Part shown: positions 2,849-43,700 of the stretch, piece after piece
How the letters are laid out: every line of letters starts with the position of its first letter
How positions within the stretch are numbered: the stretch's first letter is position 1
Notes under the pieces: generated by a model
Databases searched by the model: none
The model's input: the letters and a program-made list of their open reading frames with translations, nothing else
Told to the model about the DNA's origin: nothing
Origin: Candidatus Omnitrophota bacterium
GTDB taxonomy: Bacteria; Omnitrophota; Gorgyraeia; Duberdicusellales; 4484-171
Direction: 5' to 3'
DNA: 64,000 bases
NCBI GenBank assembly: GCA_016935525.1
Contig: JAFGQU010000012.1
Location: 1,248-65,247 of the forward strand
Position numbers and translations under genes: made by a program

Positions 2849-3435
2849 ACAGTACACAATTGATCATAAAAGGGGTGTGGACCGATCATCCTATTTTCCG
2901 GCAGTTGTTAGGGATGTGTCCGACCCTGGCGGTAACGACATCCAGTATCAACGGTATTTCTATGGGGCTTGCGGTCCTGTTTGTCCTTTTCTTCTCCTCA
3001 TTTGTCGTCTCGCTTATCAAAAAGATCGTACCGTCTCAGGTACGGATCGCCGTGTATACCGTGATCATTGCCACGTTCGTTACGATCGTCGATATATTTT
3101 TAAAAGCGTATTTTCCCGATATCAGCCGGGCATTGGGCCCGTACATCCCCTTGATCATCGTAAACTGCATTATCTTAGGCCGGTGTGAGGTGTTTGCTTC
3201 CCGCCACTCACTGGGAGTGTCGTTGATCGATGCGTTGGCGATGGGAAGCGGGTTTACCTGGGGGCTTTTTGTATTAGGAAGTATCCGGGAACTCTTCGGC
3301 GCCGGAACGATCTTGGGATTTAAGATCATGCCGGCGTTCTATAATCCGTTGATCATCATGATCCTTCCGGCCGGGGCGTTTCTGGTGCTGGGGACGCTGG
3401 TCGGGGTGATGAACAAGATAGAACAAAAACGATGA
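2845..3435 (+). CDS. rnfE: Rnf complex subunit E (RnfE/NqrD family)
   Basis: LGMCPTLAVTTS motif, polytopic membrane protein; operon position. Confidence 0.85.
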   Translation: MNSTQLIIKGVWTDHPIFRQLLGMCPTLAVTTSSINGISMGLAVLFVLFFSSFVVSLIKKIVPSQVRIAVYTVIIATFVTIVDIFLKAYFPDISRALGPYIPLIIVNCIILGRCEVFASRHSLGVSLIDALAMGSGFTWGLFVLGSIRELFGAGTILGFKIMPAFYNPLIIMILPAGAFLVLGTLVGVMNKIEQKR

Positions 3436-4013
3436 AAGATCTATTACTGATCGTAGTCTCAACGGTACTGATTAATAATTTTGTATTAAGTTATTTTTTG
3501 GGGATCTGTCCGTTTCTGGGGGTATCGGGAAAATTATCTTCGGCAATCGGGATGGGATTAAGCGTCATTTTTGTCATGACGCTCTCTTCGAGTATCAGCT
3601 GGCTGATCTATCATCTGATCCTTATCCCCCTTGAGATCACTTTTTTATCCTATGTCGTCTTTATCCTGGTGATCGCTTCTTTGGTTCAGATCGTCGAGAT
3701 GTTTATCCGTAAATATTCTCCGCCGCTTTACCAGGCATTGGGGATCTATTTACCGTTGATCACGACTAACTGCGCTATTTTAGGATGCGCGTTATTCATG
3801 ATCGCCCGTAACTACGCGTTTTTACCGGCAGTCGTGTTTGGATTTTCCGCCGGGGTAGGGTTCACGTTAATATTGCTGGTCATGGCCGGTATCAGGGAAG
3901 AACTCCAGTTCAATGATGTCCCCGGCGTATTAAAAGGCGCTCCGATCACTCTGATCACCGCCGGGTTACTGGCGCTTTGTTTCATGGGATTTTCGGGGTT
4001 GATCAGCTCATAA
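3432..4013 (+). CDS. rnfA: Rnf complex subunit A (RnfA/NqrE family)
   Basis: LGICPFLGVSGK motif, polytopic membrane protein; translationally coupled to rnfE. Confidence 0.85.
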   Translation: MKDLLLIVVSTVLINNFVLSYFLGICPFLGVSGKLSSAIGMGLSVIFVMTLSSSISWLIYHLILIPLEITFLSYVVFILVIASLVQIVEMFIRKYSPPLYQALGIYLPLITTNCAILGCALFMIARNYAFLPAVVFGFSAGVGFTLILLVMAGIREELQFNDVPGVLKGAPITLITAGLLALCFMGFSGLISS

Positions 4014-4017
4014 AGAA

Positions 4018-4083
4018 AGTCGCTAGTCGCTAGTCTATAGTAAAAATAGACCAGAGACTAGAGACTAGAGACCAGAGACTAGG
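4018..4083. repeat. Intergenic word-repeat hairpin of the CTAGTC/CTGGTC family (agtcgctagtcgctagtct ... agaccagagactagagactagagaccagagactag)
   Basis: Imperfect inverted repeat made of degenerate 6-nt words; same word family recurs at 19734-19760, 23110-23150, 26089-26165, 35220-35260 and 39485-39565. Confidence 0.7.
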
Positions 4084-4084
4084 T

Positions 4085-4891
4085 ATGGAAATTGCCATTA
4101 AAGGTTTAATAGCATTAGGGTCGGTAGGATTTTTATTTTCCGTGTTACTCGCTTTTTTAAGTAAGAAGTTTCATGTGCGTGAAGACCCTCTTATCGAGAA
4201 GTTAAACGAAGCCTTACCGGGGATACATTGCGGTGCCTGCGGATATTCGGGATGTCATGCCTATGCCGAAGCTCTTGCCGCCGGTAAAGCCGATCCCACT
4301 ATGTGCCGGGCGGGTGGGGCCGAAAGCCAGAAGAGGATCGCCGCTCTATTAAAAGTCGAGGTGAAAAAACTTTCACCTCAGAAGATCGTCGTCCATTGCG
4401 GCGCGGATACTACTCAAAAAAAATCGTCGACACTCTATGTCGGCCCGGAATCTTGCGCGGCAGCTCACTTGTTGGGCGCGAAGATCGATTGTAAATACGG
4501 ATGCCTTTTTTTCGGTGATTGCGTAAAAATATGTCCGGTTGGTGCGCTTAAGATCAGTCAGGGAAAAGTATATGTCGACCATAAAAGATGTATCCGTTGC
4601 GGGAAATGCGTAGGCGCCTGTCCGCGTAACCTTATCGAACTCGTCACTGTTTCGCCGATTCAGCCGCTTTATTACGTGGCCTGCAGTAACCGGGAAAAAG
4701 CGTTATATGTCCGGGGAGTCTGCAGCCGGGGATGTATCGCCTGCGGTATCTGTGCCCGGATCGAGAACTCTCCATTTTATATCGAGAACAATATTTCCCG
4801 GATAAAGCGGGAAGGGGATATCGATATCCCGGCTGCCTCTTCCGCAAAAGATAAATGTCCGACGCACTGTATCGATAGCGACGATGTTTAA
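4085..4891 (+). CDS. rnfB: Rnf complex subunit B (RnfB; N-terminal membrane anchor, Cys-rich Fe-S cluster domains)
   Basis: CGACGYSGCHAYAEA N-terminal Fe-S motif plus multiple CxxCxxCxxxCP ferredoxin motifs; operon position. Confidence 0.85.
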   Translation: MEIAIKGLIALGSVGFLFSVLLAFLSKKFHVREDPLIEKLNEALPGIHCGACGYSGCHAYAEALAAGKADPTMCRAGGAESQKRIAALLKVEVKKLSPQKIVVHCGADTTQKKSSTLYVGPESCAAAHLLGAKIDCKYGCLFFGDCVKICPVGALKISQGKVYVDHKRCIRCGKCVGACPRNLIELVTVSPIQPLYYVACSNREKALYVRGVCSRGCIACGICARIENSPFYIENNISRIKREGDIDIPAASSAKDKCPTHCIDSDDV

Positions 4892-5279: not shown

Positions 5280-5930
5280 ATGAGTAGAAAACATGTAAAA
5301 CGCACGACGCACGACGCACGACGCACGACCAATATAGCGGTATTAGCTTCCGGTAACGGGAGTAATTTCGAAGCGATCGTCGGCGCGATAAAAAGAGGAT
5401 ATATCAAGAAGACCTGCGTGAAGCTGTTGATCACCGATAAAGAAAAAGCCTATGTGCGTGTTCGCGCCGAACGGTTAGGGATCACACAGCTCTATATAAA
5501 TCCGCGAGAGTATAACACCGGCGGCGCGTTCGATAAAAAACTGATCCAGGTCCTTAAGAAAGAAAAAATCGGGCTTGTAGTACTTGCCGGGTACATGAGG
5601 ATACTTACACCGGTTTTTGTGAAAAAGTTCAAGAACAAGGTCATTAATATCCATCCGGCATTGCTGCCGGCATTTAAAGGTGCCCGGGCGATCGGTGATG
5701 CGTACCGTTATGGAGTGAAAATAACCGGGGTAACCGTGCATTTTGTCGATGAATGTATCGATCACGGCCCGATTATCGCGCAGAAACCGTTACCGGTGAA
5801 GAAAGGCGAATCTTTATCCGGTCTTGAAAGACGTATTCATCGCGCGGAACATACACTGTATCCTCTGGTGATAAAAAAAATAAGTGAAGGTAAAGTAAAA
5901 GTCCGTAACCGTCATGTCCAGGTCGGTTAG
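5280..5930 (+). CDS. purN: Phosphoribosylglycinamide formyltransferase
   Basis: NIAVLASGNGSNFEAI, LVVLAGYMRIL, INIHPALLPAFKG motifs; N-terminus carries an unusual 7-nt tandem repeat. Confidence 0.85.
   Translation: MSRKHVKRTTHDARRTTNIAVLASGNGSNFEAIVGAIKRGYIKKTCVKLLITDKEKAYVRVRAERLGITQLYINPREYNTGGAFDKKLIQVLKKEKIGLVVLAGYMRILTPVFVKKFKNKVINIHPALLPAFKGARAIGDAYRYGVKITGVTVHFVDECIDHGPIIAQKPLPVKKGESLSGLERRIHRAEHTLYPLVIKKISEGKVKVRNRHVQVG
5303..5330 (+). repeat. Tandem heptanucleotide repeat (CGCACGA)x4 inside the purN 5' coding end
   Basis: acgcacgacgcacgacgcacgacgcacgacc read directly; encodes RTTHDARRTT; related ACGAC-word arrays at 24605-24640 and 35168-35185 are intergenic. Confidence 0.8.
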
Positions 5931-8484: not shown

Positions 8485-11133
8485 ATGAATTTGATGAAAA
8501 AGTTCGCTTTTTCACTGGTTATTTTTATGTATAGCCTAGGATTTTATTCGCTTTTATACAGCCAACCTCCCGGAGCCCAGGAACTCTTTAGATTAGGAAA
8601 ACAATATCTTGAGGAAGGCGATAGAGAAGAAGCGGTACGTATGTTTGAAATGAGTCTTTCCGCAGACCCTTCTTATAAAGAACCGCAGGTGTATCTTGCC
8701 CGTATCCGTCGGGATGCTATCCACCAAAACTTAAATCGTTATGATAAAGGCCAGATGCGTGAGGAGTCCTCATCTTCCGGCGCGGTGCAAAGCATGTTAC
8801 AGAAACCACCGTATTCGACCGCGAAACCTGAATCTTCTTCCGGCGGAGTTATCTTTAAAGGCCAATATCAGATGGGCGCCGGGTTCACCAGCGATGACGG
8901 ATACTGGAAACGTTCGGATTATAATCTGAACGAAACGAATTACCGGATGTTAAGCGATGACGGTTTTAATCAAAGAGAGAATACCTATGATCCGGCGATC
9001 TTTTCTTTTCTGCGTTTTGATCTAGATTATCCGGCACCCGAGGAAGGATGGGGCGTGCATTCCAAATTCGATATCAGTCCCTGGAGTTTTATCGGAGAAT
9101 CCGATCGGGTTACCGTGACCAGCCTTTGGGGTGACCGCGCTGACGTTGAATTGAAATACTGGGCAAATACCGGATATACTTTTTCTCAGACGATGAAAAC
9201 TGAGATCTTCGGTAACGCTTTTAACCTTCCCGAACTGAAAGTTGAAGATGATAAAGTCGCAGCGACTCAGGTGGCCGCAAACTGGGGCGATGTGTTTACT
9301 ATTCCCGAATTAAAAATTCACCGGGATTTCTGGCCAGTACGTGAACTCAATATGTATTATGAAGGCGACGGCCACCATATCGAAATCTTTCCGGTCGCGC
9401 TGGAAGATAAAGCGTACACTTCCGATGATCCGATCGGCCTCTCCAACCATCGCACGTACTGGGAAGAATCGCAGTGGTTGACGTCCTGGGTACCCGGAAA
9501 CAATAATACCGGAGCCGGAGATTATTCTCCGGGCGAATGGGATGATTCTCTGGCTTTTTTAGTACGTGATGCCGGAAACGTCCGGTTGACGAATTTACGG
9601 GGGATGTCGTTGGGTATGGATTGGGATGACGCTGTGTTTGATTTCGTGATCGCTTCTCCCAAGACTCTCTGGCAGGATTACGATTCGTTCGATACGCTCA
9701 ATAGTTTCAGCCGCCTGAAAATATCCGCGGCAGATAATCTTACGGTCGGCGGCCTCTACGGGATGAAGATGGGGTATAAAGAGAACGGTCTGGACGCGTT
9801 CAATCATGTCTGGGGAATAGACGCCAATTACGGAATGACTCCTGAGACGCAGCTCTTTTTTGAAGTCGCGACTTCCATTTCCGAATATGACCGTAAATCT
9901 ACTTTCGAACAGGAGAAAAAAGGCAGCTCTTACCATATTTCTCTGATACATTCTTCGGGAAACGAATTCGGTAAAAACTATTTCGAACTTAATCCTGAAA
10001 AGAATGAGCCGTTTTACCGGTCGCGGTTCTCGTTTACCCGTATGGATGGGGCATTCGAGAGCGCGCTTTCCAGTCACCGGTTTACCCGGGACGATACGTT
10101 CTGGGGGAGACATCTTACATTCCGGCAGCCTTACCGGCAGTTTTTTGCCGGGTTGTATGATTCGTCAATGGATTGGTATTATGTGGATCAGTTCCGTATC
10201 GGTGACGGTGTAGATTCGGGAAGAGATACGTTTAGTTTTCGTTATGAATCATTTAATCTTTTAGATGCTAAGTTGGACATGTTATTCGATATGCGTAACG
10301 TCCATACCACCGACGGAGCTTTTCTTGAAAACGTGAGCCGTTTGGAGACGACCTACCGGGCAACCGAGGACACTACCTTCAAAGCGTTAGGGCTGTACCA
10401 TAAATTGCCGCATACGGTTACCGGAGTGGATCCGGTCATGAAGACTTCGGATGATTTTTCTATTGCCAATAGCGAGATCGATGACGGCCAGGACCCTACC
10501 CTCAAGACGGTTTCGGTGGGAGGTGAACACTGGTTTACCGACTGGTGTGCGGCAAACGTTATCTGGGAACATACCAACGACGTGACGCTTGCGTATGATA
10601 ATTTTCCCCGCGGCCTCTTAAACGGCAGCGACACTTCATTGGTCCTGGGAAATTACCGGTATGACCGGACCTGGCTTTACAGCCAGCAAGATTTTCCCGA
10701 ACCGCCGTATCCTTATTTCGATATTTTTAAAGTCGGGTTTAAAGTGCAACCTTCGGATACGTTGAATATATATCTGGATTGGACCCGCAATGAATATGAA
10801 TGGGCTCAGATCATTGATGATAACATGAATCATGTGGGGCTGCAGGTCGAATATCTCCCGATGGATACACTGGGGATGTATTTTCGTTACGTATATTCCC
10901 GGATGAAAGATATCTCGGAACTGGTCGAAGACGGACGGATCGTCAAGCGCGACCACCATAATTTTGCCTGGGAAGCGCGGTATCGTCCCGAAAAAGACCG
11001 GGAATTTATTCTGCAGTACGGTGTGGGTAGAGGAGCGTACCTGGGGACCTCCACATCGACTCCGTTCGGAGGAGATGTGCCGGTATTGGATACGCAACAT
11101 ATTGTAAGACTGTATTATCAACAGGAGTTTTAA
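8485..11133 (+). CDS. Large outer-membrane-type protein (signal peptide, N-terminal TPR-like segment, beta-rich body, C-terminal Phe)
   Basis: Signal peptide; aromatic-rich alternating pattern and C-terminal ...YYQQEF typical of OM beta-barrels; no closer assignment possible. Confidence 0.45.
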   Translation: MNLMKKFAFSLVIFMYSLGFYSLLYSQPPGAQELFRLGKQYLEEGDREEAVRMFEMSLSADPSYKEPQVYLARIRRDAIHQNLNRYDKGQMREESSSSGAVQSMLQKPPYSTAKPESSSGGVIFKGQYQMGAGFTSDDGYWKRSDYNLNETNYRMLSDDGFNQRENTYDPAIFSFLRFDLDYPAPEEGWGVHSKFDISPWSFIGESDRVTVTSLWGDRADVELKYWANTGYTFSQTMKTEIFGNAFNLPELKVEDDKVAATQVAANWGDVFTIPELKIHRDFWPVRELNMYYEGDGHHIEIFPVALEDKAYTSDDPIGLSNHRTYWEESQWLTSWVPGNNNTGAGDYSPGEWDDSLAFLVRDAGNVRLTNLRGMSLGMDWDDAVFDFVIASPKTLWQDYDSFDTLNSFSRLKISAADNLTVGGLYGMKMGYKENGLDAFNHVWGIDANYGMTPETQLFFEVATSISEYDRKSTFEQEKKGSSYHISLIHSSGNEFGKNYFELNPEKNEPFYRSRFSFTRMDGAFESALSSHRFTRDDTFWGRHLTFRQPYRQFFAGLYDSSMDWYYVDQFRIGDGVDSGRDTFSFRYESFNLLDAKLDMLFDMRNVHTTDGAFLENVSRLETTYRATEDTTFKALGLYHKLPHTVTGVDPVMKTSDDFSIANSEIDDGQDPTLKTVSVGGEHWFTDWCAANVIWEHTNDVTLAYDNFPRGLLNGSDTSLVLGNYRYDRTWLYSQQDFPEPPYPYFDIFKVGFKVQPSDTLNIYLDWTRNEYEWAQIIDDNMNHVGLQVEYLPMDTLGMYFRYVYSRMKDISELVEDGRIVKRDHHNFAWEARYRPEKDREFILQYGVGRGAYLGTSTSTPFGGDVPVLDTQHIVRLYYQQEF

Positions 11134-17789: not shown

Positions 17790-18248
17790 ATGGGAAAAGA
17801 CAAGAGATTGGAACGGTTTATCGAAGAAGTGTCCCGAATCATGCCTCAGGTCCTCCAGGGGATATTCCGGCGGCAAAGAGCCGACCTTTTGGCGAAAGGC
17901 GAGATCTCTATCCCCCAGTTTCTGCTTATGTTTCTCCTGTGCCGCAAGGGGTTTATGAAGATGAAAGATATCGCGCATGAATTGAACGTGAGCCTGCCGG
18001 CGACGACCGGCCTGGTAAACCGGCTGGTAAGGGACGGACGGGTAAAACGTATTCCCGATGAAAAAGACCGCCGGGTAGTATATATAGGTATTACATCAAG
18101 AGGGAAACAGGTGGTGAATACCGTGCGAAATCAGCGTAAAAAGCTGTTTACGGAAGTATTCAGCAATATATCCGAGAAAGAACGAGTTCAGTATCTTAAG
18201 GTGTTACGTAAAGTCGCAAAATATGTTCAGGTTCATGAAGAAAAATAA
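17790..18248 (+). CDS. MarR family transcriptional regulator
   Basis: Winged-helix MarR signature (MKDIAHELNVSLPATTGLVNRLVRDGRVKRIPDEKDRR). Confidence 0.8.
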   Translation: MGKDKRLERFIEEVSRIMPQVLQGIFRRQRADLLAKGEISIPQFLLMFLLCRKGFMKMKDIAHELNVSLPATTGLVNRLVRDGRVKRIPDEKDRRVVYIGITSRGKQVVNTVRNQRKKLFTEVFSNISEKERVQYLKVLRKVAKYVQVHEEK

Positions 18249-19725
18249 TATTTTATATACTGCTTTATCGGTGGTCTTATTCTGCCTTGTGTCCTGGCAA
18301 AGGATACCGGCTTTTGCGCACACGGCTGAAGCTTCGTCGGTTTTTGAGATCGACAGCCAAAAGGTGGCGGACCTGGCTCTTTCTAACTCACTCGATATCC
18401 AGATCGCCCGGTTCGATACTTATATTAAACGGACCGAATTGAACAAGGTCCGGTCTCTTTTCGATACGTTTCTTAACGCCGGGATCGAATATGCCAGTGA
18501 TGAAAAAGCGGTGGCCAGTACATTTTTGGGTACCAAAACAAGCAGTAATGTCTATTCATTGGGGATCGAGAAAAAATTACCCAGCGGGACCGCGATCAGC
18601 GTCGAAGCAAAAGATGAACGCACTCATACCGATTCTTCGTTTGCCACGATCAATCCCGCTCATGAGGCGACTGTAGAACTTACGCTTACTCAGGAGTTAG
18701 GGAAGAACTTTTTCGGTATAGCGGACCGATCAGAAGTGAAACTGACTAAACTCGATATCGAGAATGCCGAATACACGACACTTTCCGATATCGAAGATGC
18801 GCTGTATGAGACTTTGAAAAGCTACTGGAACCTGGTATTGAAAGAAGAGGCGCTTCGGATACGCCGCCAAATGCGTACTCAGGCCGACCGGCTTTATAAG
18901 ATCTATCAGGATAAATTCGATATGGGTATGGTCGAGGATGTCGATATGGCCGAGATCCGCGCGCATCTTAAGATCCTTGATACCGGGGTGCTCAACGCCG
19001 AACTTGAGAAAGAAACGGCTAAGAACGATTTGTTGTTTCTCCTTAACCTGGACGATCCCGCGGTCGTCCTTGTCCCCCGCGATACTTTAGAAACCGAGCC
19101 GCATACCGTAGACCTTTATGAAAAAGTGACCGGAGCGATCGCTTTCCGGCGTGATTACCGGAAAATAGAAAACGAACTCAAAAAACATAATATCGAACTC
19201 GCGGTCAAAAAGAACGCGTTATGGCCCGAGATCGATCTTGAGGCTTCTTATACGAAAAACGGCCTTGATTCAAAATATCGCGAAGCCTGGTCGGAAAGCA
19301 CCAATAAAGACCATGACGAGATATTTTTAGGATTGACTATCCGTCTTTCTCTGGAAAACAATCAGGCTCGTTCGGAGCTGGATGCGGCCCGGCTTCAAAA
19401 AGAGCAGTTATTATTGTCGCTTAAACGTATCGAACGGACCGTCTTGCGTGATATCAATAATCAGGTGATGACCGTGAACACGTTGAAAAACAAGGTGGAT
19501 TTAACGGGAGAGCTTGTGGGGTTTCAGGCAACCAAGTTAGCCGAGGAGCATAAACGGTTAGGCTGGGGCCGGTCGAATGCCGATGTCATGGTACGGTATG
19601 AAGACGATCTGCTTGGCGCTCAACTTGATTATGCTATGGCGTTATACCAGTACCGGATAGGTATTCTTGAGCTCGCCCGGAGGCAGAATATACTTTTAAA
19701 TGAGTATTGGACAGGAGAGCTGTAG
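18223..19725 (+). CDS. TolC family outer membrane efflux protein
   Basis: Signal peptide, two repeats of the TolC alpha/beta architecture, length ~500 aa. Confidence 0.75.
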   Translation: MFRFMKKNNILYTALSVVLFCLVSWQRIPAFAHTAEASSVFEIDSQKVADLALSNSLDIQIARFDTYIKRTELNKVRSLFDTFLNAGIEYASDEKAVASTFLGTKTSSNVYSLGIEKKLPSGTAISVEAKDERTHTDSSFATINPAHEATVELTLTQELGKNFFGIADRSEVKLTKLDIENAEYTTLSDIEDALYETLKSYWNLVLKEEALRIRRQMRTQADRLYKIYQDKFDMGMVEDVDMAEIRAHLKILDTGVLNAELEKETAKNDLLFLLNLDDPAVVLVPRDTLETEPHTVDLYEKVTGAIAFRRDYRKIENELKKHNIELAVKKNALWPEIDLEASYTKNGLDSKYREAWSESTNKDHDEIFLGLTIRLSLENNQARSELDAARLQKEQLLLSLKRIERTVLRDINNQVMTVNTLKNKVDLTGELVGFQATKLAEEHKRLGWGRSNADVMVRYEDDLLGAQLDYAMALYQYRIGILELARRQNILLNEYWTGEL

Positions 19726-19730
19726 AAAGT

Positions 19731-19814
19731 TGATGGTCTATAGTCCATAGTCGATAGTTACGGATATTGGGTGCAGGGTATCGGGTGCCGAACGACGAAC
19801 GACTAACGACGATG
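19731..19814. repeat. Composite intergenic repeat: CTAGTC-type words + GGGTGCAGGGTATCGGGTGCCG + AACGACG words
   Basis: ggtctatagtccatagtcgatagtta / gggtgcagggtatcgggtgccg / aacgacgaacgactaacgacg read directly; modules recur elsewhere. Confidence 0.7.
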
Positions 19815-19830: not shown

Positions 19831-22800
19831 ATGAGTCTGCCGCGGTTCAGCGTAAATCAGTCTCTATTTGTGAATCTAGTCTCGGTGATCTTACTTATCA
19901 TCGGGATGATTACGGTATTCGGTACTAACCGGGAGATATTTCCTAATGTCGATTTCGATATTGTCAGTATTACTACCGCTTATCCCGGGGCGACGCCGGT
20001 GGATGTCGAGAAGCTGATCACGGTGCCGATTGAGAAAGAACTGAAAGAGGTCGACGGGATCGATGAGATATCGTCGTCATCGGCTTCCGGGGTATCGTTT
20101 CTTATCGTGAAAATAGACCCGGACGAAAGTAATAAACAGAAAGTGATCCGTGACATCCAGAGTGCCGTCGACCGGGTCAAGGACCTTCCCAAAGATATAG
20201 CCGCCGATCCGATCGTGACCGAAATAACCAATAAACAGTATCCGGTGATCGAGGTGTCGTTGTCCGGTAAGATGGATGAAAAGAAGATGCATTATTATGC
20301 CGACGCGCTTGAAGATCTGATTGAAGACCTGCCATCGGTCGCCCGGATCACTAAATCGGGATATCGTGACCGGGAAATACAGGTACGGGTCGATCCGGTA
20401 AAGATGCGCGATCAGTATCTATCGTTTGATGAGATAGAACAGGCCCTTTCTACCCGTAACGTCAGCCTTCCGGCCGGAGAACTTAATACCGAGGCTATTG
20501 AATATAGCGTGCGGACTACCGGAGAGTTCCAGACTGCCGATGAGGTTGCCGAAGTCATTGTCCGGGCAAACGATCTGGGGAACTGGATACGGATAAAGGA
20601 TGTGGCCGATGTGTTCGATTCGTTCAAGAAAGAAACAATCGTCTATAAGACTCTGGGGACCCGTTCGATAAACCTTGTCGTTTTGAAGAAAGAGAAAGGC
20701 GACGCCATCACGCTGGTCGACGACATAAAAGCTACCTGCAACCGGTTTTTAGAACATATAGACGATGATCTTCAGATATCCTATGTGAACGATTATTCGT
20801 TTTTTGCCCGGCGCCGGCTTAACGTGCTTAAAAATAACGGTTGGGCCAGTCTGGTCCTGGTCATCGCGTCGATGCTTTTGTTTTTACAGCCGCGGGTAGT
20901 GTTCATGACGGTATTGGGTATCCCGATTGCGTTTTTGACCACGTTCATCGCGATGGGGATGTTGGGCATTACGATCAACCTGGTCAGTATGTTCGGTTTG
21001 ATCATCGTACTCGGTATGCTCGTCGATGACGGGATCATTGTCGCCGAGAACGTGTACCGCCATCTGGAAGAAGGGATGCCGCCGCGGCGGGCCGCGGTGA
21101 TGGGTGCCGAAGAGGTGATGGGCGCGGTCACTGTCGCGATCATGACCACGATCGCCGCTTTTTCTCCACTTTTATTTATGACCGGAATATTGGGGAAATT
21201 TATCCGCAACATCCCTACCGTCATTATCATCGCGCTCGTCGCTTCGCTTGCCGAGGCGCTGATCATTCTGCCCAGCCATCTTGCCGATTTCATGAAAGCT
21301 CAGACCCATATCGTACGTGACCATGAGAATGACGAATCGCAAAGGCCGTGGCTCAGGGCGATTTTGCGGTTTTATACCCGTATCGTGACCGCGGCGGTCA
21401 ACCGTAAATATAAGGTGCTGGGCGGTTTTACCGTCGCGCTTATCGTAAGCGCCATATTGGCTAACGTCGCGTTAAAGTTTATTCTTTTTCCGGACGCGGG
21501 AATAGATTTCTTTTTTATACGGGCTGAGGCTCCTATCGGTACGCCGCTTGTCAAAACCAACGAATTGATCACGCCGATAGAAGAGATCGTTTCCGAATTA
21601 CCTGGCGATGAACTGGATACCTATGTCACCTCAGTCGGGAAGATGTCGGAAGACCGTAACGACCCGTATTCGCAAACGGCAAGTCATCTGGCCCAGATTA
21701 CGGTATATCTTTATCCCGAACATGACCGGGTACGGAAAGCCGATGAGATCATCGAAGAAGTCCGTAATAAGATCAAAGCCGCGGGTATCGGAGGGTTTAC
21801 CGATCTCCGGTTCGATAAAGCCGAGACCGGCCCGCCGGTAGGGAAAGCGGTCGAAGCCAAGATCCGCGGTGAAGACTTTAACGTGCTTGATAAGATCGCT
21901 TTTGAATTCATAGATTATTTGAAAAAACTGCCCGGTACTACCGATATTGCCTGGGATCATAAACCGGGAAAAGAAGAGATCTTGGTCAGTATCGACCATA
22001 AAAAAGCGACGTATGCCGGCGTGTCGGTAAGCCAGATCGCCAAGACCGTCCGCGCTGTCTTCGAAGGGAATATCGCGACCAAGATCAAACCGGTGAAAGC
22101 CGAAGAAGAAACCGACGTGACGGTGATGTTTCCCGAAAGTTCGGCTGACGATCTGGACGTATTTGAGAATATCCTGGTGCGTAACAATCAGGGGAACCTT
22201 GTCCCGTTGCATAAAATAGCCGAAATCAAACAGGTTCCCGGTACGACCGCGATCAGCCATTTAGACGGAAAAAGAGTCGTGACCGCTTCAGCCAATGTCG
22301 ACACCAATAAGACGACTTCGCTTGAGGTGAACCGGAAATTGCAGGAAAAATTCAAAGATATCTCACAACGTTATTTGGGATATTCGGTCGAATATCAGGG
22401 AGAACAGAAAGATACCGTTGAATCGTTACAGAGTCTGCTGAAAGCTTTCTTTTACGCGTTTCTGGTCGTCTATCTTATCCTGGCATCGTTTTTCCGTTCA
22501 TTGGTTCAGCCGTTCGTGGTGATGCTGGCGATTCCGTTCGGACTTATCGGGGTGGTGTTCGCGTTTATTGTCCACGGAATGCCGCTTTCGTTCATGGCGA
22601 TATTGGGGATCGTGGGATTAAACGGGATCGTGGTGAACGATTCTATCGTACTGGTGGATAAAATCAATAACTTGCGCCGGGAAGGCCTGCCGCGGCGCGA
22701 TTCGATCATCAAAGCCGGGCAGATGCGTATCCGGCCGGTACTTTTGACTACGATCACGACTGTCGGAGGGTTATCGACGGTCGCTTACGGGATCGGGGGG

Positions 22801-22995
22801 AAAGACCCGTTTCTGGTGCCGATGGCTCTTTCGATCTGTTGGGGTATCGCTTTTGCGACTGTATTGACGTTGATCGTGATCCCCTGTATTTATTCTATTA
22901 TAGACGATATTACCGTAAAACTTACCCGCCATTCCAGCCTGATCACTACCGATAAAGTGAATAATCACAACGGTAATCCCTGGCTGAAACCTTAA
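19831..22995 (+). CDS. Efflux RND transporter permease (AcrB/CzcA superfamily)
   Basis: 1054 aa, 12-TM RND topology with two large periplasmic loops; no adaptor (MFP) gene between tolC and this gene. Confidence 0.85.
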   Translation: MSLPRFSVNQSLFVNLVSVILLIIGMITVFGTNREIFPNVDFDIVSITTAYPGATPVDVEKLITVPIEKELKEVDGIDEISSSSASGVSFLIVKIDPDESNKQKVIRDIQSAVDRVKDLPKDIAADPIVTEITNKQYPVIEVSLSGKMDEKKMHYYADALEDLIEDLPSVARITKSGYRDREIQVRVDPVKMRDQYLSFDEIEQALSTRNVSLPAGELNTEAIEYSVRTTGEFQTADEVAEVIVRANDLGNWIRIKDVADVFDSFKKETIVYKTLGTRSINLVVLKKEKGDAITLVDDIKATCNRFLEHIDDDLQISYVNDYSFFARRRLNVLKNNGWASLVLVIASMLLFLQPRVVFMTVLGIPIAFLTTFIAMGMLGITINLVSMFGLIIVLGMLVDDGIIVAENVYRHLEEGMPPRRAAVMGAEEVMGAVTVAIMTTIAAFSPLLFMTGILGKFIRNIPTVIIIALVASLAEALIILPSHLADFMKAQTHIVRDHENDESQRPWLRAILRFYTRIVTAAVNRKYKVLGGFTVALIVSAILANVALKFILFPDAGIDFFFIRAEAPIGTPLVKTNELITPIEEIVSELPGDELDTYVTSVGKMSEDRNDPYSQTASHLAQITVYLYPEHDRVRKADEIIEEVRNKIKAAGIGGFTDLRFDKAETGPPVGKAVEAKIRGEDFNVLDKIAFEFIDYLKKLPGTTDIAWDHKPGKEEILVSIDHKKATYAGVSVSQIAKTVRAVFEGNIATKIKPVKAEEETDVTVMFPESSADDLDVFENILVRNNQGNLVPLHKIAEIKQVPGTTAISHLDGKRVVTASANVDTNKTTSLEVNRKLQEKFKDISQRYLGYSVEYQGEQKDTVESLQSLLKAFFYAFLVVYLILASFFRSLVQPFVVMLAIPFGLIGVVFAFIVHGMPLSFMAILGIVGLNGIVVNDSIVLVDKINNLRREGLPRRDSIIKAGQMRIRPVLLTTITTVGGLSTVAYGIGGKDPFLVPMALSICWGIAFATVLTLIVIPCIYSIIDDITVKLTRHSSLITTDKVNNHNGNPWLKP

Positions 22996-23040: not shown

Positions 23041-23150
23041 AGCCGAGTACAGGGTTACAGGGCAGGGATAGGGTGCCGGGTTTCGGGTATCGGGTGGAGG
23101 GTGAAAACTATAGACCGTAGACCGACGACTAGCGACTATTTTTATCCGCT
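23041..23150. repeat. Composite intergenic repeat (GGGTGCCGGGTTTCGGGTATCGGGTGG words followed by CTATAGACCGTAGACCGACGACTAGCGAC words)
   Basis: Direct reading; shares words with 19769-19790 and, inverted, with 33017-33060. Confidence 0.7.
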
Positions 23151-24445: not shown

Positions 24446-24640
24446 CCAGTTTAATGTCACACGACACACCCGTGAGTCTCACGACAACGGGGCAAGCGCG
24501 TCATCCCGTGGAATTCGGAGAATTCCCGGGACTGAATCCCCGAAATTTATCAGTGATAAATTTCAGGGGGCATAGTCACACGTGAATAAAAACTCAAAAT
24601 CAAAAACGAACGACTCACGACGTACGACGAGCGACGGGAA
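24440..24640. repeat. Composite intergenic repeat: GTCACACG-family module plus ACGAC word array
   Basis: gtcacacgacacacccgtgagtctcacgacaacggggcaagcgcg ... catagtcacacgtg ... gaacgactcacgacgtacgacgagcgacgg. Confidence 0.65.
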
Positions 24641-24642
24641 GT

Positions 24643-32927: not shown

Positions 32928-33070
32928 ATTTACGTCACACGTTGCCCTTCGGGCTCGCGAAGATGAGCACAGATTGAGAAGACCACAGATGATTGCAGAT
33001 ATCCTCGTATCCCCCCACCCTGCACCCGATACCCTGTACCCGGCACCCGAGATAGTAGAAACTGGACAGG
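32928..33070. repeat. Composite repeat: GTCACACG words + conserved 80-bp module + inverted GGGTGCAGGGTATCGGGTGCCG family
   Basis: 32932-33015 is ~90% identical to 48160-48237 (gcccttcgggctcgcgaagatgagcacagattgagaagaccacagatgattgcagatatcctcgtatcccc). Confidence 0.75.
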
Positions 33071-33298
33071 GAAAAGTGGAAAGGGGACAGGGGATTTGGG
33101 TTGAAAGATAGAGAAAATGGGGGTATTATAAAAAATAAGTGAGGTATCTAGTATAGACTATATAGAATTTATATCTATGAGGTTCACCTTTATAGACATA
33201 GGTATAAAAAGTTGACAAATCCCCTCTAAATATGGTATATTTAAATTGGTCAGTTTAATTGACTGGTCTTTTAAATAGACTACAAATAGGAGATAAAA

Positions 33299-33577
33299 AT
33301 GGCACACCTAACTATTACTACAACCAGTAACGCGAAAGCAAAATTTATTTCTATGGTACGGAAGGTTCATGATTTAGGACAGGCTTACATGATCACCCAT
33401 AGGGGAGAAGATTCTGCTGTATTGTTAAGCCATGAAGATTATGAAGGCCTTTTAGAGACAATTGATATTTTAAAAAATAATAAGATTATTGCGGAAATCA
33501 TGCAATCTTTGAAAGATCTCGAAGAGGGGGTCATCCATTCCTTTGAGGAAGTTGTTGGCAGACAACAGAAAAAATGA
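33299..33577 (+). CDS. Type II antitoxin, Phd/YefM family
   Basis: YefM-like N-terminal motif (AKAKFISMVRKVHDLGQAYMITHRGEDSAVLLSHEDYEGLLET); 4-nt overlap with toxin gene. Confidence 0.8.
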   Translation: MAHLTITTTSNAKAKFISMVRKVHDLGQAYMITHRGEDSAVLLSHEDYEGLLETIDILKNNKIIAEIMQSLKDLEEGVIHSFEEVVGRQQKK

Positions 33578-33864
33578 ACCGACAGAACGTTTATAGCATT
33601 TCTTTTACCCGCACTTCTAAAAAACAATTTAATTTTCTCCCCGGCAAAATAAAGAAAGAAATTGCTAAAATCTTAGAAGAAGAGTTAGCGTATAATCCTC
33701 TTTTAGGAAAGCCGCTGCAAGGGCCATTGAAGGGATTGCGTTCTCAAAGAGTCGGAGTGCTGAGGATCATATATAAGATAGTGCAAGACGAATTGGTTAT
33801 AATAGTGATCAGTCTTGAGCATAGGAAAAGTGTATATCGTAGCCACAAATTGAAGAAGAAATAA
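33574..33864 (+). CDS. Type II toxin, RelE/ParE family
   Basis: 96 aa; RelE-fold motifs (YSISFTRTSKKQF, LRSQRVGVLRIIYKI); ATGA overlap with upstream antitoxin. Confidence 0.75.
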   Translation: MNRQNVYSISFTRTSKKQFNFLPGKIKKEIAKILEEELAYNPLLGKPLQGPLKGLRSQRVGVLRIIYKIVQDELVIIVISLEHRKSVYRSHKLKKK

Positions 33865-35715: not shown

Positions 35716-35850
35716 ATAGATCTTATTTTAACAAATTACCGGCAATTTTCAATTTTTTGATATAAAAAATATCTATGCCATTCATAGATCTATTGATAAT
35801 TATAGGGTTTTTTGTATTATTCCAGAAGATGCGTCCATAGAACGGATGGC

Positions 35851-36089
35851 TTTTCAACCACGGAGGACACAGAGAGCACAGAGAGGAATTGAGGGTATCC
35901 TCAATATTTGAGAAAATCTGTAATACTCAAACGCTCATTGAGCGTTTTGGGTCAGGGAGCGCAGGGCGCGTAAATAAAAAGGATTTTTTATTTCGCTGCC
36001 TGCGCTCCCTGAATGTTCCTGCGAGAGATATCTCGCAGGGTAATTACAGATTTTTTGCTCCGTGAACTCCGTGAGCTCTGTGGTTAAAT
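35851..36089. mobile_element. MITE-like element copy 2 (TIR ttCAACCACGGAGG ... CTCTGTGGTTaaat; internal 118-bp module in orientation A)
   Basis: Near-identical termini to copy 3; interior = three hairpins bounded by 12-bp inverted repeats AAAATCTGTAAT/ATTACAGATTTT. Confidence 0.75.
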
Positions 36090-36339: not shown

Positions 36340-37182
36340 ATGGGACAAATAGCGAACGGACAATCGGTAAAGCTGTACTTAGACCTCTTGAAAAAGACCC
36401 TTACCTTTACGTTATGGCCGGAACCGCCTCTGCCGGTTGAAATATTCAGTTATAAATATCCGGTACCGACCAGGATATTCTTTAAGATCCTTTCGGCACT
36501 ATGCCGGGTAGGGAAAATGCGGTTAGTGAAAGACCGCAGGTTCGCGTCCGGCGAACGGGAACAGGGACGGGTCTGGCCGGGATATGCCGATACGATGATC
36601 GGTCTTGCCCGGCTTGATAATATCCAGGAATGCGCTGAAACCGTGATCAAAGAGAACGTGCCCGGCGATCTTATCGAAACCGGGGTATGGCGCGGCGGTG
36701 CCTGTATCTTTATGCGGGCAGTCCTTGCTGCCTACGGTATTGTCGGCCGGAAAGTGTATGTATGTGATTCGTTTGAAGGGTTGCCGAAACCGGATGAGGA
36801 GAAATATCCCGCCGATAAAGGCGATACGCATCATGTCCATCAGTTTATCGCGGTATCGCAGGAGGAAGTTGAACATAATTTCCGGAAATACGGGTTACTT
36901 GACGAACAGGTCGTGTTTCTTAAAGGATGGTTTAAAGATACGTTACCGGCCGCGCCGATCGAGAAGATCGCCCTTATGAGGTTAGACGGCGATATGTATT
37001 CATCGACTATCGACGCGTTACAGAACCTGTACCCGAAACTGTCGCCGGGCGGGTTCTGTATTATCGACGATTACGCGTTGAAAGGATGTAAACAGGCTGT
37101 TGACGATTATCGTCGTGACCACGGTATTGCCGCGCCGATCCGCACCGTCGATTGGACCGGAGTATACTGGCGAAAAGAATAG
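36340..37182 (+). CDS. Class I SAM-dependent O-methyltransferase, TylF/MycF (macrocin O-methyltransferase) family
   Basis: TylF-family motifs (GDLIETGVWRGGACIFMRAVLAAY, VCDSFEGLP, GWFKDTLP, MRLDGDMYSST); flanked by MITE-like copies. Confidence 0.7.
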   Translation: MGQIANGQSVKLYLDLLKKTLTFTLWPEPPLPVEIFSYKYPVPTRIFFKILSALCRVGKMRLVKDRRFASGEREQGRVWPGYADTMIGLARLDNIQECAETVIKENVPGDLIETGVWRGGACIFMRAVLAAYGIVGRKVYVCDSFEGLPKPDEEKYPADKGDTHHVHQFIAVSQEEVEHNFRKYGLLDEQVVFLKGWFKDTLPAAPIEKIALMRLDGDMYSSTIDALQNLYPKLSPGGFCIIDDYALKGCKQAVDDYRRDHGIAAPIRTVDWTGVYWRKE

Positions 37183-37286
37183 CGTAGCCGGCGTTTCCCT
37201 GCCTATTTGTCTTATCTAGAGACTATGTTATAATTGACCCATTATGAATCGTATTGTTTAGAAGATGTGTTTGCAGGGTGAAGGTA

Positions 37287-37526
37287 TTTCAACCACGGAG
37301 GACACAGAGAGCACAGAGAGGAATTGAGGGTATTCTCAATATTTGAGAAAATCTGTAATCATCCTGCGAGAAGCATCTCGCAGAAACGTTCAGGGAGCGC
37401 AGGCGGCAAAATAAAATATTCCTTTTATTTACGCGCTCTGCGCTTCCTGACCCAAAACGCTCAATGAGCGTTTGAGTATTACAGATTTTTTTTGCTCTGT
37501 GAACTCCGTGAGCTCTGTGGTTAAAT
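37287..37526. mobile_element. MITE-like element copy 3 (same termini as copy 2; internal 118-bp module inverted, orientation B)
   Basis: Reverse complement of copy-2 interior aligns at ~88% to copy-3 interior while the flanks stay co-linear. Confidence 0.75.
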
Positions 37527-39999: not shown

Positions 40000-40135
40000 C
40001 GTCACATAGACACATAGTCACAAGGTCACACGTGTCTAAAAAAACAGAATATCAATTTGTCTGGATTCTTTCGTGTGACGTGTGTCGTGCTTGCCCCGTT
40101 GCGTAAACTCAAGGGGTGACTGTGTGACTTGGAAG
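40000..40135. repeat. GTCACACG-family composite repeat (includes gcttgccccgttgcg, the inverse of cgcaacggggcaagc at 48141-48155)
   Basis: gtcacgtcacatagacacatagtcacaaggtcacacgtg ... gtgtgacgtgtgtcgtgcttgccccgttgcg ... ggggtgactgtgtgac. Confidence 0.7.
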
Positions 40136-43521: not shown

Positions 43522-43700
43522 AGACGTAACGCGGAATGCGACACGCGTAACGCGTGAGGGGAATACCGAATGTACACTTCCGAAGTGTACAAAGGGGGTA
43601 GCGGTGAGCGGTTAGGAATAGTCGATAGTGTATAGTTTTCCCCCCTCCACCCGATACCCTATCATTATTCGCCACACGACACATAGTCTCACGTTAAAAA
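43522..43700. repeat. Composite repeat: ACGTAACGCGG words, GTACAC palindrome, CCACCCGATACCCT words, GTCACACG words
   Basis: acgtaacgcggaatgcgacacgcgtaacgcgtgagg ... gtacacttccgaagtgtac ... cccctccacccgataccctatcattattcgccacacgacacatagtctcacg. Confidence 0.65.

What the first reader, a model, noticed from the sequence alone, without database searches (positions are those of the whole stretch)
19769..19790. A GGGTGCAGGGTATCGGGTGCCG word family is present in both orientations at five loci
Copies occur at 19769-19790, 23055-23105 (tandemly expanded: gggatagggtgccgggtttcgggtatcgggtggagggtg), 33017-33060 (inverted: ccccaccctgcacccgataccctgtacccggcacccg), 43622-43670 and 48225-48250. The family is a three-letter (G/T/C) word on one strand and always sits next to GTCACACG or CTAGTC modules. 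G-runs spaced by 3-4 nt could form G-quadruplex-like structures on the G-rich strand.
Basis: seen in the sequence. Interest (0 to 1): 0.5.

Follow-up and report, generated by a model that had tools for sequence, protein, structure and literature searches.

The report
G-rich heptamer repeat arrays, Omnitrophota
The "word family" is a set of short head-to-tail arrays of a 7-base unit (GGGT plus three variable bases), found in five gene spacers and inside one gene of an Omnitrophota chromosome; it is a known kind of bacterial simple repeat, only its longer copies could fold into G-quadruplexes, and no function is shown.

Summary
The five reported loci are real and far beyond chance: GGGTNNNGGGTNNNGGG gives 11 matches against 0.04 expected. 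The family has a strict 7-nt period, (GGGTNNN)n. There is a sixth copy, a 42-nt in-frame insertion inside mnmA. The family is only one of about a dozen period-7 or period-8 word families (AGTCTCT, GTCACAC, CGAACGA, CCCGTTC, CCAAT and others) that fill the spacers of this Candidatus Omnitrophota chromosome. Period-7 self-similarity covers 3.4% of intergenic windows and 0.06% of coding windows.

All six copies are colinear on one core, GCACCC-GATACCC-TG(T/C)ACCC-GGCACCC. They differ by unit-sized gaps and share their flanks in a mosaic pattern. The family is absent from orthologous spacers of the nearest relative.

Only three copies are canonical G-quadruplex motifs and one more is borderline. 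Orientation is 3:3 relative to replication and shows no bias relative to transcription.

The best reading is degenerate heptanucleotide simple-sequence repeats, of the same kind as the GGGNATC repeats of Xanthomonas and Nostoc and the cyanobacterial STRR. I infer that they arise by slippage and spread by template switching or recombination between arrays, and that G4 potential is a by-product. This is a new member of a known kind, of modest interest.

The parts
19769..19790 (+). GGGT-heptamer array, copy 1: GGGTGCA GGGTATC GGGTGCC G. It has 3 units and lies in the spacer between the outer-membrane efflux gene (18223-19725) and the RND pump gene (19831-22995).
   Evidence: G4Hunter 1.20 with only 3 G-tracts; no G4 in the fold
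19736..19758 (+). Adjacent TAGTC-type heptamer array (GTCTATA GTCCATA GTCGATA GT) in the same composite spacer.
19789..19812 (+). Adjacent CGAACGA heptamer array in the same composite spacer.
23052..23103 (+). GGGT-heptamer array, copy 2: GGGTTACA GGGCA GGGATA, then GGGTGCC GGGTTTC GGGTATC GGGTGGA GGGTG. It has 8 G3 tracts and starts 57 nt after the RND gene stop codon.
   Evidence: two canonical PQS, G4Hunter 1.52; three-layer G4 in the minimum-energy fold
23108..23137 (+). Adjacent GACTA-type array (TATAGACCGTAGACCGACGACTAGCGACTA), the complement of the TAGTC family. This junction is shared with copy 4.
33011..33050 (-). GGGT-heptamer array, copy 3, C-rich on the + strand: GGGTGCC GGGTACA GGGTATC GGGTGCA GGGTGGG GGG.
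   Evidence: (I8: 33 nt, 88% complementary to copy 2); PQS and G4Hunter 2.0; a hairpin outcompetes G4 in the fold
32932..33014 (+). 83-nt dispersed repeat (D2) that directly abuts copy 3. A second copy at 48156-48238 (93% identical) abuts copy 5.
   Evidence: not structured (z about +0.6); no Rfam match
33063..33103 (+). Neighbouring G-rich heptamer array of another family (GGACAGG / GGAAAGG). It does not form a significant hairpin with copy 3.
   Evidence: (z -0.56)
43640..43662 (-). GGGT-heptamer array, copy 4: GGGTATC GGGTGGA GGGGGG. It lies in a convergent spacer, with a TAGTC array upstream and a CACACG array downstream.
   Evidence: 3 G-tracts; two-layer G4 only
48234..48250 (-). GGGT-heptamer array, copy 5, a 2-unit remnant: GGGTGCC GGGG. 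It lies in a divergent spacer between the D2 repeat and TATCATTGTTCG plus a CACACG array.
   Evidence: (D2, D4); G4Hunter 1.08
48156..48238 (+). Second copy of the 83-nt D2 repeat.
60436..60477 (+). That is 6 x 7 = 42 nt = 14 codons (GCRVQGHGWRGPGM), an in-frame insertion in the interdomain linker of mnmA (59791-60900).
   Evidence: (I17); gap of 14 residues against solved MnmA structures; absent from the 13 nearest homologues; PQS, G4Hunter 1.72

Best explanation
The family consists of degenerate heptanucleotide simple-sequence repeats, (GGGTNNN)n. It is one of about a dozen period-7 or period-8 word families that populate the spacers of this Candidatus Omnitrophota chromosome.

The six copies descend from one higher-order sequence of about 20-35 nt: GGGTGCC-GGGTNNN-GGGTATC-GGGTG(C/G)A-GGGTG.

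Proposed mechanism, all of it inferred:
1. Units are gained and lost in 7-nt register by replication slippage.
2. Whole arrays, sometimes with neighbouring modules, are copied to new sites by microhomology-primed template switching or recombination between arrays.
3. Copies persist where they do little harm. That means spacers, including intercistronic ones, and once a protein linker, where 6 units keep the reading frame.

The G-quadruplex potential of the longer copies follows from the unit's sequence. It is not the property that defines or maintains the family. No trans-acting partner or regulatory role is shown.
For: SHOWN:
- Period 7. TRF and regular-expression scans find the arrays. At least 14 of 21 matches at lag 7 covers 3.4% of intergenic windows against 0.06% of coding windows. 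Every other period scores lower, and the next best is 14.
- Beyond chance: 11 matches against 0.04 expected.
- One family among many. The same spacers carry AGTCNCT/GACTAGA, GTCACAC, CGAACGA, CGTAACG, CCAAT/TTGG and CCCGTTC/AACGGG arrays.
- Common descent and unit-sized length changes. All six copies align colinearly on GCACCC-GATACCC-TG(T/C)ACCC-GGCACCC. Copies 2 and 3 are 88% identical over 33 nt. Copy 4 matches copy 2 across the junction TATAGTTTTC...CTCCACCCGATACCC, with a 14-nt (2-unit) gap in the flanking TAGTC array. Copy 4 also lacks the two units GAAACCC GGCACCC that copy 2 has before TATC. Flanks are shared in a mosaic: copies 3/5 share upstream D2, copies 4/5 share downstream TATCATTRTTCG-CACACG, and copies 2/4 share the upstream TAGTC array.
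- Recent, lineage-specific gain. The mnmA copy is a 42-nt in-frame insertion absent from 13 nearest homologues and from solved MnmA structures. The native codons just 3' of it (CCG GGT GAA) already read GGGTGAA, which is the last unit of copy 2, so a microhomology is available. In most relatives the efflux-protein and RND pump genes abut with no spacer at all.
- Turnover. Orthologous spacers of the closest relative (L002, 81% identity in the RND protein) carry different word families. Only one of about six array-bearing spacers keeps the same words. Yet L002 shares 45% of its array 7-mers with the window, against a median of 11% for other relatives.
- A phylum-wide tendency, and not confined to the phylum. 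Period-7 arrays run at 8.0 per 10 kb of spacer against 0.28 per 10 kb of coding sequence across 66 Omnitrophota sequences, the window plus 65 relatives' loci. The count is 28 per 100 kb in the window and 4 per 100 kb in unselected metagenome contigs.
- Agreement with the described class. Rehm et al. 2015 (PMC4692102) report heterogeneous (GGGANTN)n arrays with positions 1-4 conserved, about 90% intergenic, equal on both strands, often in inverted pairs, and differing in length between sister species.

INFERRED: slippage and template switching as the molecular processes, and near-neutrality.
Against: - No population or strain data could be obtained. The nearest genome is only 81% identical in the RND protein, so slippage-type length polymorphism was never observed directly.
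- Mismatches within arrays cluster in 2-3 columns and leave a 4-5-nt core invariant: 190 invariant columns against 171.5 +/- 3.6 in permutations. This could mean selection on the core. It could also come from duplication of 14-nt double units, which my null model does not include.
- The same spacers carry arrays in both the window and L002 even though the words differ. That could mean the presence of an array is itself useful.
- No mechanism explains the preference for 7 nt. The only idea on record is a polymerase-footprint idea that Rehm et al. attribute to their reference 33.
Confidence: 0.6

Rival explanations
1. The arrays are selected G-quadruplex elements. On DNA or on the mRNA they modulate transcription, translation or transcript stability of neighbouring genes, for example by bracketing the RND efflux pump gene.
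For: - Copies 1 and 2 flank the RND gene on its sense strand.
- Three copies are canonical G4 motifs, and 4 of the window's 6 motifs (1.1 expected) lie in the family.
- ViennaRNA places a G4 in the minimum-energy fold for copies 2, 4 and 6.
- Related (GGGAATC)n oligonucleotides form G4 in vitro (Rehm 2015).
Against: - Three of the six copies have fewer than four G3 tracts.
- Orientation is 3:3 on the two strands, with no consistent relation to transcription.
- There is no preference for four units; the copies have 2, 3, 3, 5-6, 6 and 5+3.
- The family is absent from orthologous spacers of relatives.
- Heptamer families without G-runs occupy equivalent positions.
- Rehm et al. themselves found no regulatory role.
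Confidence: 0.15
2. The arrays and their flanking modules (D2, TAGTC arrays, CACACG arrays) are parts of small non-autonomous mobile elements, like REPIN, MITE or the Nostoc SDR. An enzyme encoded elsewhere in the genome copies them.
For: - The copies are colinear and have mosaic flanks.
- The 83-nt D2 repeat is 93% identical at two sites 15 kb apart.
- The 9-nt direct repeat CGACACACG flanks D2 plus array at 48157 and 48256.
- There is a clean 42-nt insertion in mnmA.
- About 100 nt of hairpins are inserted within a GTCACAC array relative to L002.
- One short-read contig of the same sample ends inside an array spacer: L190 at window position about 4077, in the 4048-4082 array. Another, L001, ends at about 24529, inside that hairpin insertion within the GTCACAC spacer.
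Against: - No transposase, RAYT or integrase is encoded among the window's 50-odd proteins.
- The GGGT loci have no terminal inverted repeats and do not fold better than shuffles (z -0.6 to -1.3).
- The 'target duplication' is itself a unit of the common CACACG array.
- Copies differ by whole units, as slippage predicts.
- D2 has no homologue in about 1 Mb of relatives.
Confidence: 0.15
3. The arrays are iterated binding sites for a protein or RNA partner that reads a 4-nt core (GGGT) every 7 nt, in the way proposed for the TAACTGA repeats of Beggiatoaceae.
For: - Each unit has an invariant GGGT core and variable positions 5-7.
- Variable columns are clustered across 43 arrays.
- Arrays lie within operon spacers that are probably transcribed, such as the rnf operon and the MarR-efflux operon.
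Against: - At least ten different cores coexist in one genome, and the cores change between lineages. One reader protein cannot explain them.
- Both orientations occur.
- One copy is inside a coding sequence.
- No candidate binding protein was identified.
Confidence: 0.07

Closest known systems
G-rich heptameric SSRs of the GGGNATC type: (GGGAATC)n in Xanthomonas and (GGGGA(C/T)T)n in Nostoc PCC 7120 (Rehm et al. 2015, PMC4692102)
   Same: - 7-nt unit with a G3 tract at a fixed position.
- Heterogeneous units with positions 1-4 conserved.
- About 90% intergenic and equal on both strands.
- Array lengths not conserved between related genomes.
- The longer arrays are G4 motifs.
- The unit GGGTATC fits GGGNATC.
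(searches compared)
   Different: - The core is GGGT and the tail is variable; there is no GGGAATC unit.
- Only 6 copies occur in 64 kb, with no preference for four units.
- The host is a small-genome Omnitrophota bacterium, not Xanthomonas or a cyanobacterium.
- In the window, inverted pairing is seen for other word families but not for GGGT.
STRR, the short tandemly repeated repetitive heptanucleotides of heterocystous cyanobacteria (Calothrix, Anabaena, Nostoc). The description of three tandemly repetitive heptanucleotides in Calothrix PCC 7601 is taken from Rehm's introduction. The name STRR and the unit sequences are from my own memory.
   Same: - Several different heptamer words per genome.
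- Tandem and intergenic.
- Function unknown.
   Different: - Different unit sequences and a different phylum.
- The arrays here are short (2-8 units) and degenerate.
TAACTGA direct repeats of marine Beggiatoaceae, cyanobacteria and Bacteroidetes (MacGregor 2015, PMC4679880)
   Same: Intergenic heptamer direct repeats of 2-6 copies in operon spacers.
   Different: - There it is a single dominant word, placed just upstream of start codons, and a translational role was proposed.
- Here there are many words, in both orientations, with no fixed distance to start codons.
REP / BIME / REPIN elements with their RAYT transposases (Bertels and Rainey 2011, PMC3116915)
   Same: - Short repeats dispersed through spacers, including intercistronic ones.
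- The window's other word families form arm/anti-arm hairpins (z -3 to -9), so they may behave like REP hairpins in transcripts.
   Different: - The GGGT copies are direct arrays, not palindromes.
- No RAYT is encoded in the window.
- The internal structure has a 7-nt period.
Small dispersed repeats (SDR) embedded in tandem heptameric repeats of Nostoc punctiforme (Elhai et al. 2008). Cited from my own memory; the paper is mentioned in PMC3116915.
   Same: Small hairpin elements sit inside heptamer arrays here too. CCCGTGAG...ACGGGGCAAGC occurs at about 24468, 40078(-) and 48128, and a 100-nt hairpin cluster lies inside a GTCACAC array.
   Different: - There is no sequence similarity.
- Mobility is not shown here.

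Membership tests
G-rich heptameric SSR, GGGNATC type (Rehm 2015) | Head-to-tail units of exactly 7 nt, at least 2 units | tested here: met
G-rich heptameric SSR, GGGNATC type (Rehm 2015) | G3 tract at fixed unit positions, with positions 1-4 conserved and the others heterogeneous | tested here: met
   GGGT is invariant in nearly all units, and the tails are GCC, ATC, GCA, GGA, TTC, ACA and others
G-rich heptameric SSR, GGGNATC type (Rehm 2015) | The authors' operational rule: the array contains at least one GGGAATC (Xanthomonas) or GGGGA(C/T)T (Nostoc) unit | tested here: not met
   Neither unit occurs. The nearest is GGGTATC, in 4 of the six copies
G-rich heptameric SSR, GGGNATC type (Rehm 2015) | Strong bias to non-coding DNA and no strand bias | tested here: met
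   5 of 6 copies are intergenic and orientation is 3:3
G-rich heptameric SSR, GGGNATC type (Rehm 2015) | Preference for four units, the number needed for a G4 | tested here: inconclusive
   Unit counts are 2, 3, 3, 5-6, 6 and 5+3. Six copies are too few to judge
G-rich heptameric SSR, GGGNATC type (Rehm 2015) | K+-dependent G4 formation by the oligonucleotides in vitro | not testable with these tools
   Predictions only: canonical motif in 3 of 6 copies, and G4 in the ViennaRNA minimum-energy fold in 3 of 6
Canonical intramolecular G-quadruplex motif (G3+N1-7)x3 G3+ | Four or more G3 tracts with loops of 1-7 nt | tested here: inconclusive
   Met by copies 2, 3 and 6. Not met by copies 1 (3 tracts), 4 (3 tracts, one of them G6) and 5 (2 tracts)
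Cyanobacterial STRR | Heptamer words STRR1-3 in heterocystous cyanobacteria (definition from memory) | tested here: not met
   The organism is Candidatus Omnitrophota and the unit sequences differ
REP / REPIN | Imperfect palindrome of 20-40 nt that forms a hairpin | tested here: not met
   The GGGT loci fold no better than shuffles (z -0.6 to -1.3). Other word families in the window do fold (z -3 to -9)
REP / REPIN | An associated RAYT (Y1 transposase) gene | tested here: inconclusive
   None is encoded among the window's proteins. The rest of the genome was not available
MITE | Terminal inverted repeats plus a target-site duplication | tested here: not met
   No terminal inverted repeats were found around the arrays. 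The only flanking direct repeat, CGACACACG at 48157 and 48256, is itself a unit of the neighbouring array
CRISPR array | Repeats of 20-50 nt separated by unique spacers of similar length | tested here: not met
   The units are contiguous 7-mers with no spacers
Any curated RNA family (Rfam 15) | A match at the family's gathering score | tested here: not met
   Only five tRNAs were found in the window

The most novel reading that the evidence does not exclude
The many heptamer-word families of Omnitrophota spacers might be an undescribed, self-propagating system rather than passive slippage products. In this reading, short higher-order arrays (a 4-5-nt core plus a variable linker) are copied between sites by a dedicated or hijacked template-switching mechanism. 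The families would be inherited at genus level while individual insertions turn over, and the arrays could invade coding sequences in frame, as in mnmA. The arrays would then be a source of spacer hairpins, G4 motifs and protein-linker insertions in streamlined nanobacterial genomes.
Probability: 0.12. Interest if true: 0.6.

Novelty: new member of a known kind. Interest (0 to 1): 0.3.

Why it matters
Heptanucleotide repeats are a long-noted and unexplained oddity of some bacterial genomes, such as Xanthomonas, Nostoc and Beggiatoaceae. This window adds three things:
- It shows the phenomenon in Candidatus Omnitrophota, an uncultured phylum of very small cells. The library searches found no paper that mentions such repeats in this phylum.
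- It gives a compact example in which the copies can be shown to be related by descent. They are colinear, have unit-sized gaps and share flanks in a mosaic.
- It gives a clean case of an array inserted in frame into an essential tRNA-modification gene.

On the practical side, these arrays coincide with breaks in short-read assemblies of this organism, and they inflate G4-motif counts, so G4 censuses in such genomes need to take them into account. The finding does not reveal a new mechanism or function.

Tried and rejected
- Hairpin or terminator role for the GGGT loci. Their folds are no better than shuffles and no terminator-like or promoter-like sites coincide with them. The genome has ordinary hairpin-plus-T terminators elsewhere.
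- RNA-level selection, tested by strand asymmetry of folding. 7 of 11 hairpin spacers fold better on +, 4 on -. This is inconclusive.
- Known RNA family. None was found. The D2 repeat is unstructured.
- Microevolution in close strains. There are none: the protein database holds only the genome itself and an 81% relative. Exact-protein look-ups gave only two short contigs from the same sample, and one look-up failed.
- Census in relatives. (GGG N4)x2 GGG arrays are rare in 1 Mb of Omnitrophota loci and absent from the closest relative's 23 kb.
- Metagenome scan for GGGTATCGGGTGNAGGG.
  - 85 of the 120 hits lie outside any period-7 array. Most of these look like chance or coding matches.
  - 35 lie in period-7 arrays from contigs of GC 0.37-0.71. 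They include telomere-like (CCCTAAA)n arrays (L171, L179, L187) and bacterial arm/anti-arm arrays (L131, L143).
  - None is clearly this lineage.
  - These contigs make a poor background control because they were selected by the pattern.
- FtsK-orienting (GGGNAGGG) or Chi-like polar motif. Rejected because both orientations occur within a region of uniform skew.
- Spacer-type preference. Arrays per kb are similar in co-directional (1.06), divergent (0.89) and convergent (0.62) spacers.
- Core conservation test. It is significant against a simple permutation null, but the null ignores duplication of double units, so I do not use it as evidence of selection.

Full report
**Observation**

Read in register they are head-to-tail arrays of a 7-nt unit, GGGT plus three variable bases.
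- 19769-19790 (+): GGGTGCA GGGTATC GGGTGCC G.
- 23052-23103 (+): three irregular units, then GGGTGCC GGGTTTC GGGTATC GGGTGGA GGGTG.
- 33011-33050 (-): GGGTGCC GGGTACA GGGTATC GGGTGCA GGGTGGG GGG.
- 43640-43662 (-): GGGTATC GGGTGGA GGGGGG.
- 48234-48250 (-): GGGTGCC GGGG.

GGGTNNNGGGTNNNGGG matches 11 times against 0.04 +/- 0.2 in dinucleotide shuffles. The 'three-letter word' description is wrong, since A makes up 9-18% of the G-rich strand. The ranges given for loci 4 and 5 include neighbouring modules.

A sixth copy was missed, at 60436-60477: GGATGCC GGGTACA GGGTCAC GGGTGGC GGGGACC GGGAATG.

**Context**

The window is a housekeeping stretch of a Candidatus Omnitrophota chromosome. It encodes the Rnf complex, enolase, ribonucleotide reductase, RtcB/archease, SerRS, SmpB, MnmA, NadA and NifU among others.
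- The RND pump at 19831-22995 is 65-81% identical to proteins of Omnitrophota MAGs.
- GC content is about 47%.
- GC skew is positive throughout, and almost all genes lie on the + strand.

**The family is one of many**

TRF and a lag-7 self-similarity scan show that the spacers are built from short degenerate arrays of period 7, sometimes 8, 9 or 11. The words include AGTCGCT/TAGTCTC and their complement GACCAGA/GACTAGC, GTCACAC, CGAACGA, CGTAACG, CCAAT/TTGG, CCCGTTC/AACGGG and GAAATAC.
- At least 14 of 21 matches at lag 7 covers 3.4% of intergenic windows and 0.06% of coding windows. No other period comes close except 14.
- Many spacers carry an array followed by an array of the complementary word. 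These fold into long imperfect hairpins (z -3 to -9).
- The four GGGT spacers tested do not fold better than shuffles (z -0.6 to -1.3).

It simply reflects composite spacers.

**The copies are related by descent**

Pairwise and multiple alignments show all six copies are colinear on the core GCACCC-GATACCC-TG(T/C)ACCC-GGCACCC.
- Copies 2 and 3 are 88% identical over 33 nt.
- Copy 6 follows the unit order of copy 3.
- Copy 4 equals copy 2 across the junction with a TAGTC array, apart from a 14-nt (two-unit) gap in that array. It also lacks two GGGT units before TATC.
- Copies 3 and 5 share an upstream 83-nt repeat (D2, 93% identical).
- Copies 4 and 5 share the downstream TATCATTRTTCG plus CACACG array.

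Independent slippage at six sites would not reproduce the same order of variant units. The family is therefore a dispersed higher-order repeat that later changed length by whole units.

**Gain and turnover**

The mnmA copy is 42 nt, or 14 codons (GCRVQGHGWRGPGM), between the HUP and PRC-barrel domains.
- Solved MnmA structures show a gap of exactly 14 residues there.
- None of the 13 nearest homologues (53-65% identity, mostly Omnitrophota) has the insertion.
- The native codons immediately 3' (CCG GGT GAA, the conserved P-G-E/D) read GGGTGAA, the terminal unit of copy 2. This offers a microhomology for template switching. That step is inference.

Three comparisons with relatives bear on turnover:
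- In most relatives the outer-membrane efflux gene abuts the RND gene with no spacer, so the spacer holding copy 1 is derived.
- In the closest relative (L002, syntenic, 81% identity in the RND protein), the orthologous spacers also carry arrays but of different families. Only 24446-24642 and L002 14517-14612 keep the same words.
- L002 has no GGGT array in 23 kb, yet it shares 45% of its array 7-mers with the window, against a median of 11% for other relatives. Word families are inherited over genus-scale distances while individual arrays turn over.

**Distribution**

- Across 66 Omnitrophota sequences (the window plus 65 relatives' loci), period-7 arrays occur at 8.0 per 10 kb of spacer against 0.28 per 10 kb of coding sequence. 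There is no clear preference for co-directional, convergent or divergent spacers.
- Each lineage uses its own words.
- Density per 100 kb is 28 in the window, 8 on average in relatives and 4 in unselected metagenome contigs.
- A metagenome scan for GGGTATCGGGTGNAGGG found 35 of 120 hits inside period-7 arrays, on contigs of GC 0.37-0.71. Some are telomere-like (CCCTAAA)n and others are bacterial arm/anti-arm arrays. (GGGTNNN)n arrays are therefore widespread.

**G-quadruplex test**

- Canonical motifs occur in copies 2 (two motifs), 3 and 6.
- The G4Hunter maxima for copies 1 to 6 are 1.20, 1.52, 2.00, 1.84, 1.08 and 1.72.
- Copies 1, 4 and 5 have only 3, 3 and 2 G3 tracts.
- With quadruplexes allowed, ViennaRNA puts a G4 in the minimum-energy RNA fold of copies 2, 4 (two layers) and 6, but not of copies 1, 3 or 5.
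- The window has 6 canonical motifs against 1.1 expected, and 4 of them lie in the family.
- Orientation is 3:3 on the two strands.
- Relative to genes, three copies are sense (1, 2, 6), one is antisense (3), one lies in a convergent spacer (4) and one in a divergent spacer (5).

Some copies pass the threshold, and there is no orientation bias.

**Comparison with what is known**

The closest description is Rehm et al. 2015 (PMC4692102). They report heterogeneous (GGGANTN)n heptamer repeats in Xanthomonas and GGGGA(C/T)T repeats in Nostoc. These have positions 1-4 conserved, are about 90% intergenic, sit equally on both strands, often form inverted pairs, differ between sister species, form G4 in vitro, and have no function identified.
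- The present family matches these properties, except for the exact unit and the four-unit preference, which is untestable with six copies.
- Other relatives in kind are the three tandemly repetitive heptanucleotides of Calothrix PCC 7601 (known as cyanobacterial STRR, a name I supply from memory) and the TAACTGA repeats of Beggiatoaceae (PMC4679880).
- REP/REPIN elements (PMC3116915) resemble the window's hairpin-forming families in behaviour. Membership fails for the GGGT loci, which are not palindromes, and no RAYT is encoded in the window.
- Library searches found no paper linking Omnitrophota with such repeats.

**Verdict**

The G4 interpretation is only partly supported. The best explanation (confidence 0.6) is a degenerate heptanucleotide simple-sequence repeat family that changes length by slippage and spreads by template switching or recombination between arrays, with G4 potential as a by-product. 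Periodicity, descent, unit-sized length changes, lineage-specific gain and turnover are shown. The molecular processes and near-neutrality are inferred. This is a new member of a known kind, and interest is modest.

Noticed in passing
window 60436-60477 (mnmA, 59791-60900): A six-unit GGGT heptamer array (42 nt, 14 codons, GCRVQGHGWRGPGM) is inserted in frame in the linker between the HUP and PRC-barrel domains of MnmA. It is absent from solved MnmA structures and from the 13 nearest homologues. The codons just 3' read GGGTGAA, a possible microhomology.
   Followed up: yes
window 5300-5329: A perfect (ACGCACG)x4.3 array sits in the first 17 codons of the ORF called for purN (5280-5930). The Pfam match starts at residue 18. 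The true start is probably downstream, which would make the array intergenic.
   Followed up: partly
window 35913-36054 and 37348-37489: 142-nt inverted repeats, 89% complementary, flank a TylF-like O-methyltransferase gene (36340-37182). Additional 80-nt direct repeats (35845-35924 and 37280-37359, 95% identical) lie just outside. This looks like a cassette bracketed by repeats.
   Followed up: no
window 32932-33014 and 48156-48238: An 83-nt dispersed repeat (D2, 93% identical) directly abuts GGGT copies 3 and 5. It is unstructured (z about +0.6), has no Rfam match, and has no homologue in about 1 Mb of relatives. At the second site the 9-mer CGACACACG flanks D2 plus array on both sides.
   Followed up: partly
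window 24470-24570 compared with L002 14517-14612: Relative to the orthologous spacer of the closest relative, the window has about 100 nt made of three hairpins (z -4.6) inserted inside a GTCACAC array. One of the hairpins (CCCGTGAG...ACGGGGCAAGC) recurs at 48128-48166 and, inverted, at 40078-40121.
   Followed up: partly
window 54910-55015: 11-nt-period GAAATAC arrays are followed by the complementary GTATTTC arrays. Together they form the most stable spacer hairpin in the window (-42 kcal/mol, z -9.4), between a Cys/Met PLP enzyme gene and a PALP enzyme gene.
   Followed up: partly
window 4014-4084: An AGTCGCT/GAGACTA arm and anti-arm hairpin (z -4.3) fills the whole 71-nt spacer inside the rnf operon, between the second Rnf-Nqr membrane-subunit gene (3432-4013) and the Fe-S subunit gene (4085-4891). 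It is therefore presumably part of the polycistronic transcript.
   Followed up: partly
L001 (8676 nt) and L190 (5267 nt), contigs of SRR13394437: Two independent short-read contigs of the same organism end inside array-bearing spacers. L190 ends at about window 4077, inside the 4048-4082 array. L001 ends at about window 24529, inside the hairpin insertion in the GTCACAC spacer. This fits assemblers breaking at dispersed repeats.
   Followed up: partly
window 33299-33864: A Phd/YefM antitoxin and ParE toxin pair lies in the 1.4-kb gene-poor, repeat-rich stretch that also holds GGGT copy 3.
   Followed up: no
window 43779-47813 (-) and 8485-11133 (+): Two large ORFs (1344 aa and 882 aa) have no significant Pfam domain. 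The second shows only faint TPR hits.
   Followed up: no
L171, L179, L187 (metagenome contigs): Hits of the GGGT pattern fall in long degenerate (CCCTAAA)n arrays. These are plant or algal-type telomere-like repeats and are presumably eukaryotic. They share the GGGT-plus-3 heptamer form.
   Followed up: no
L005 and L006, upstream of the RND gene: In these relatives the efflux-protein to RND pump junction carries near-perfect long palindromes instead of heptamer arrays. Different lineages have filled the same junction with different structured inserts.
   Followed up: no
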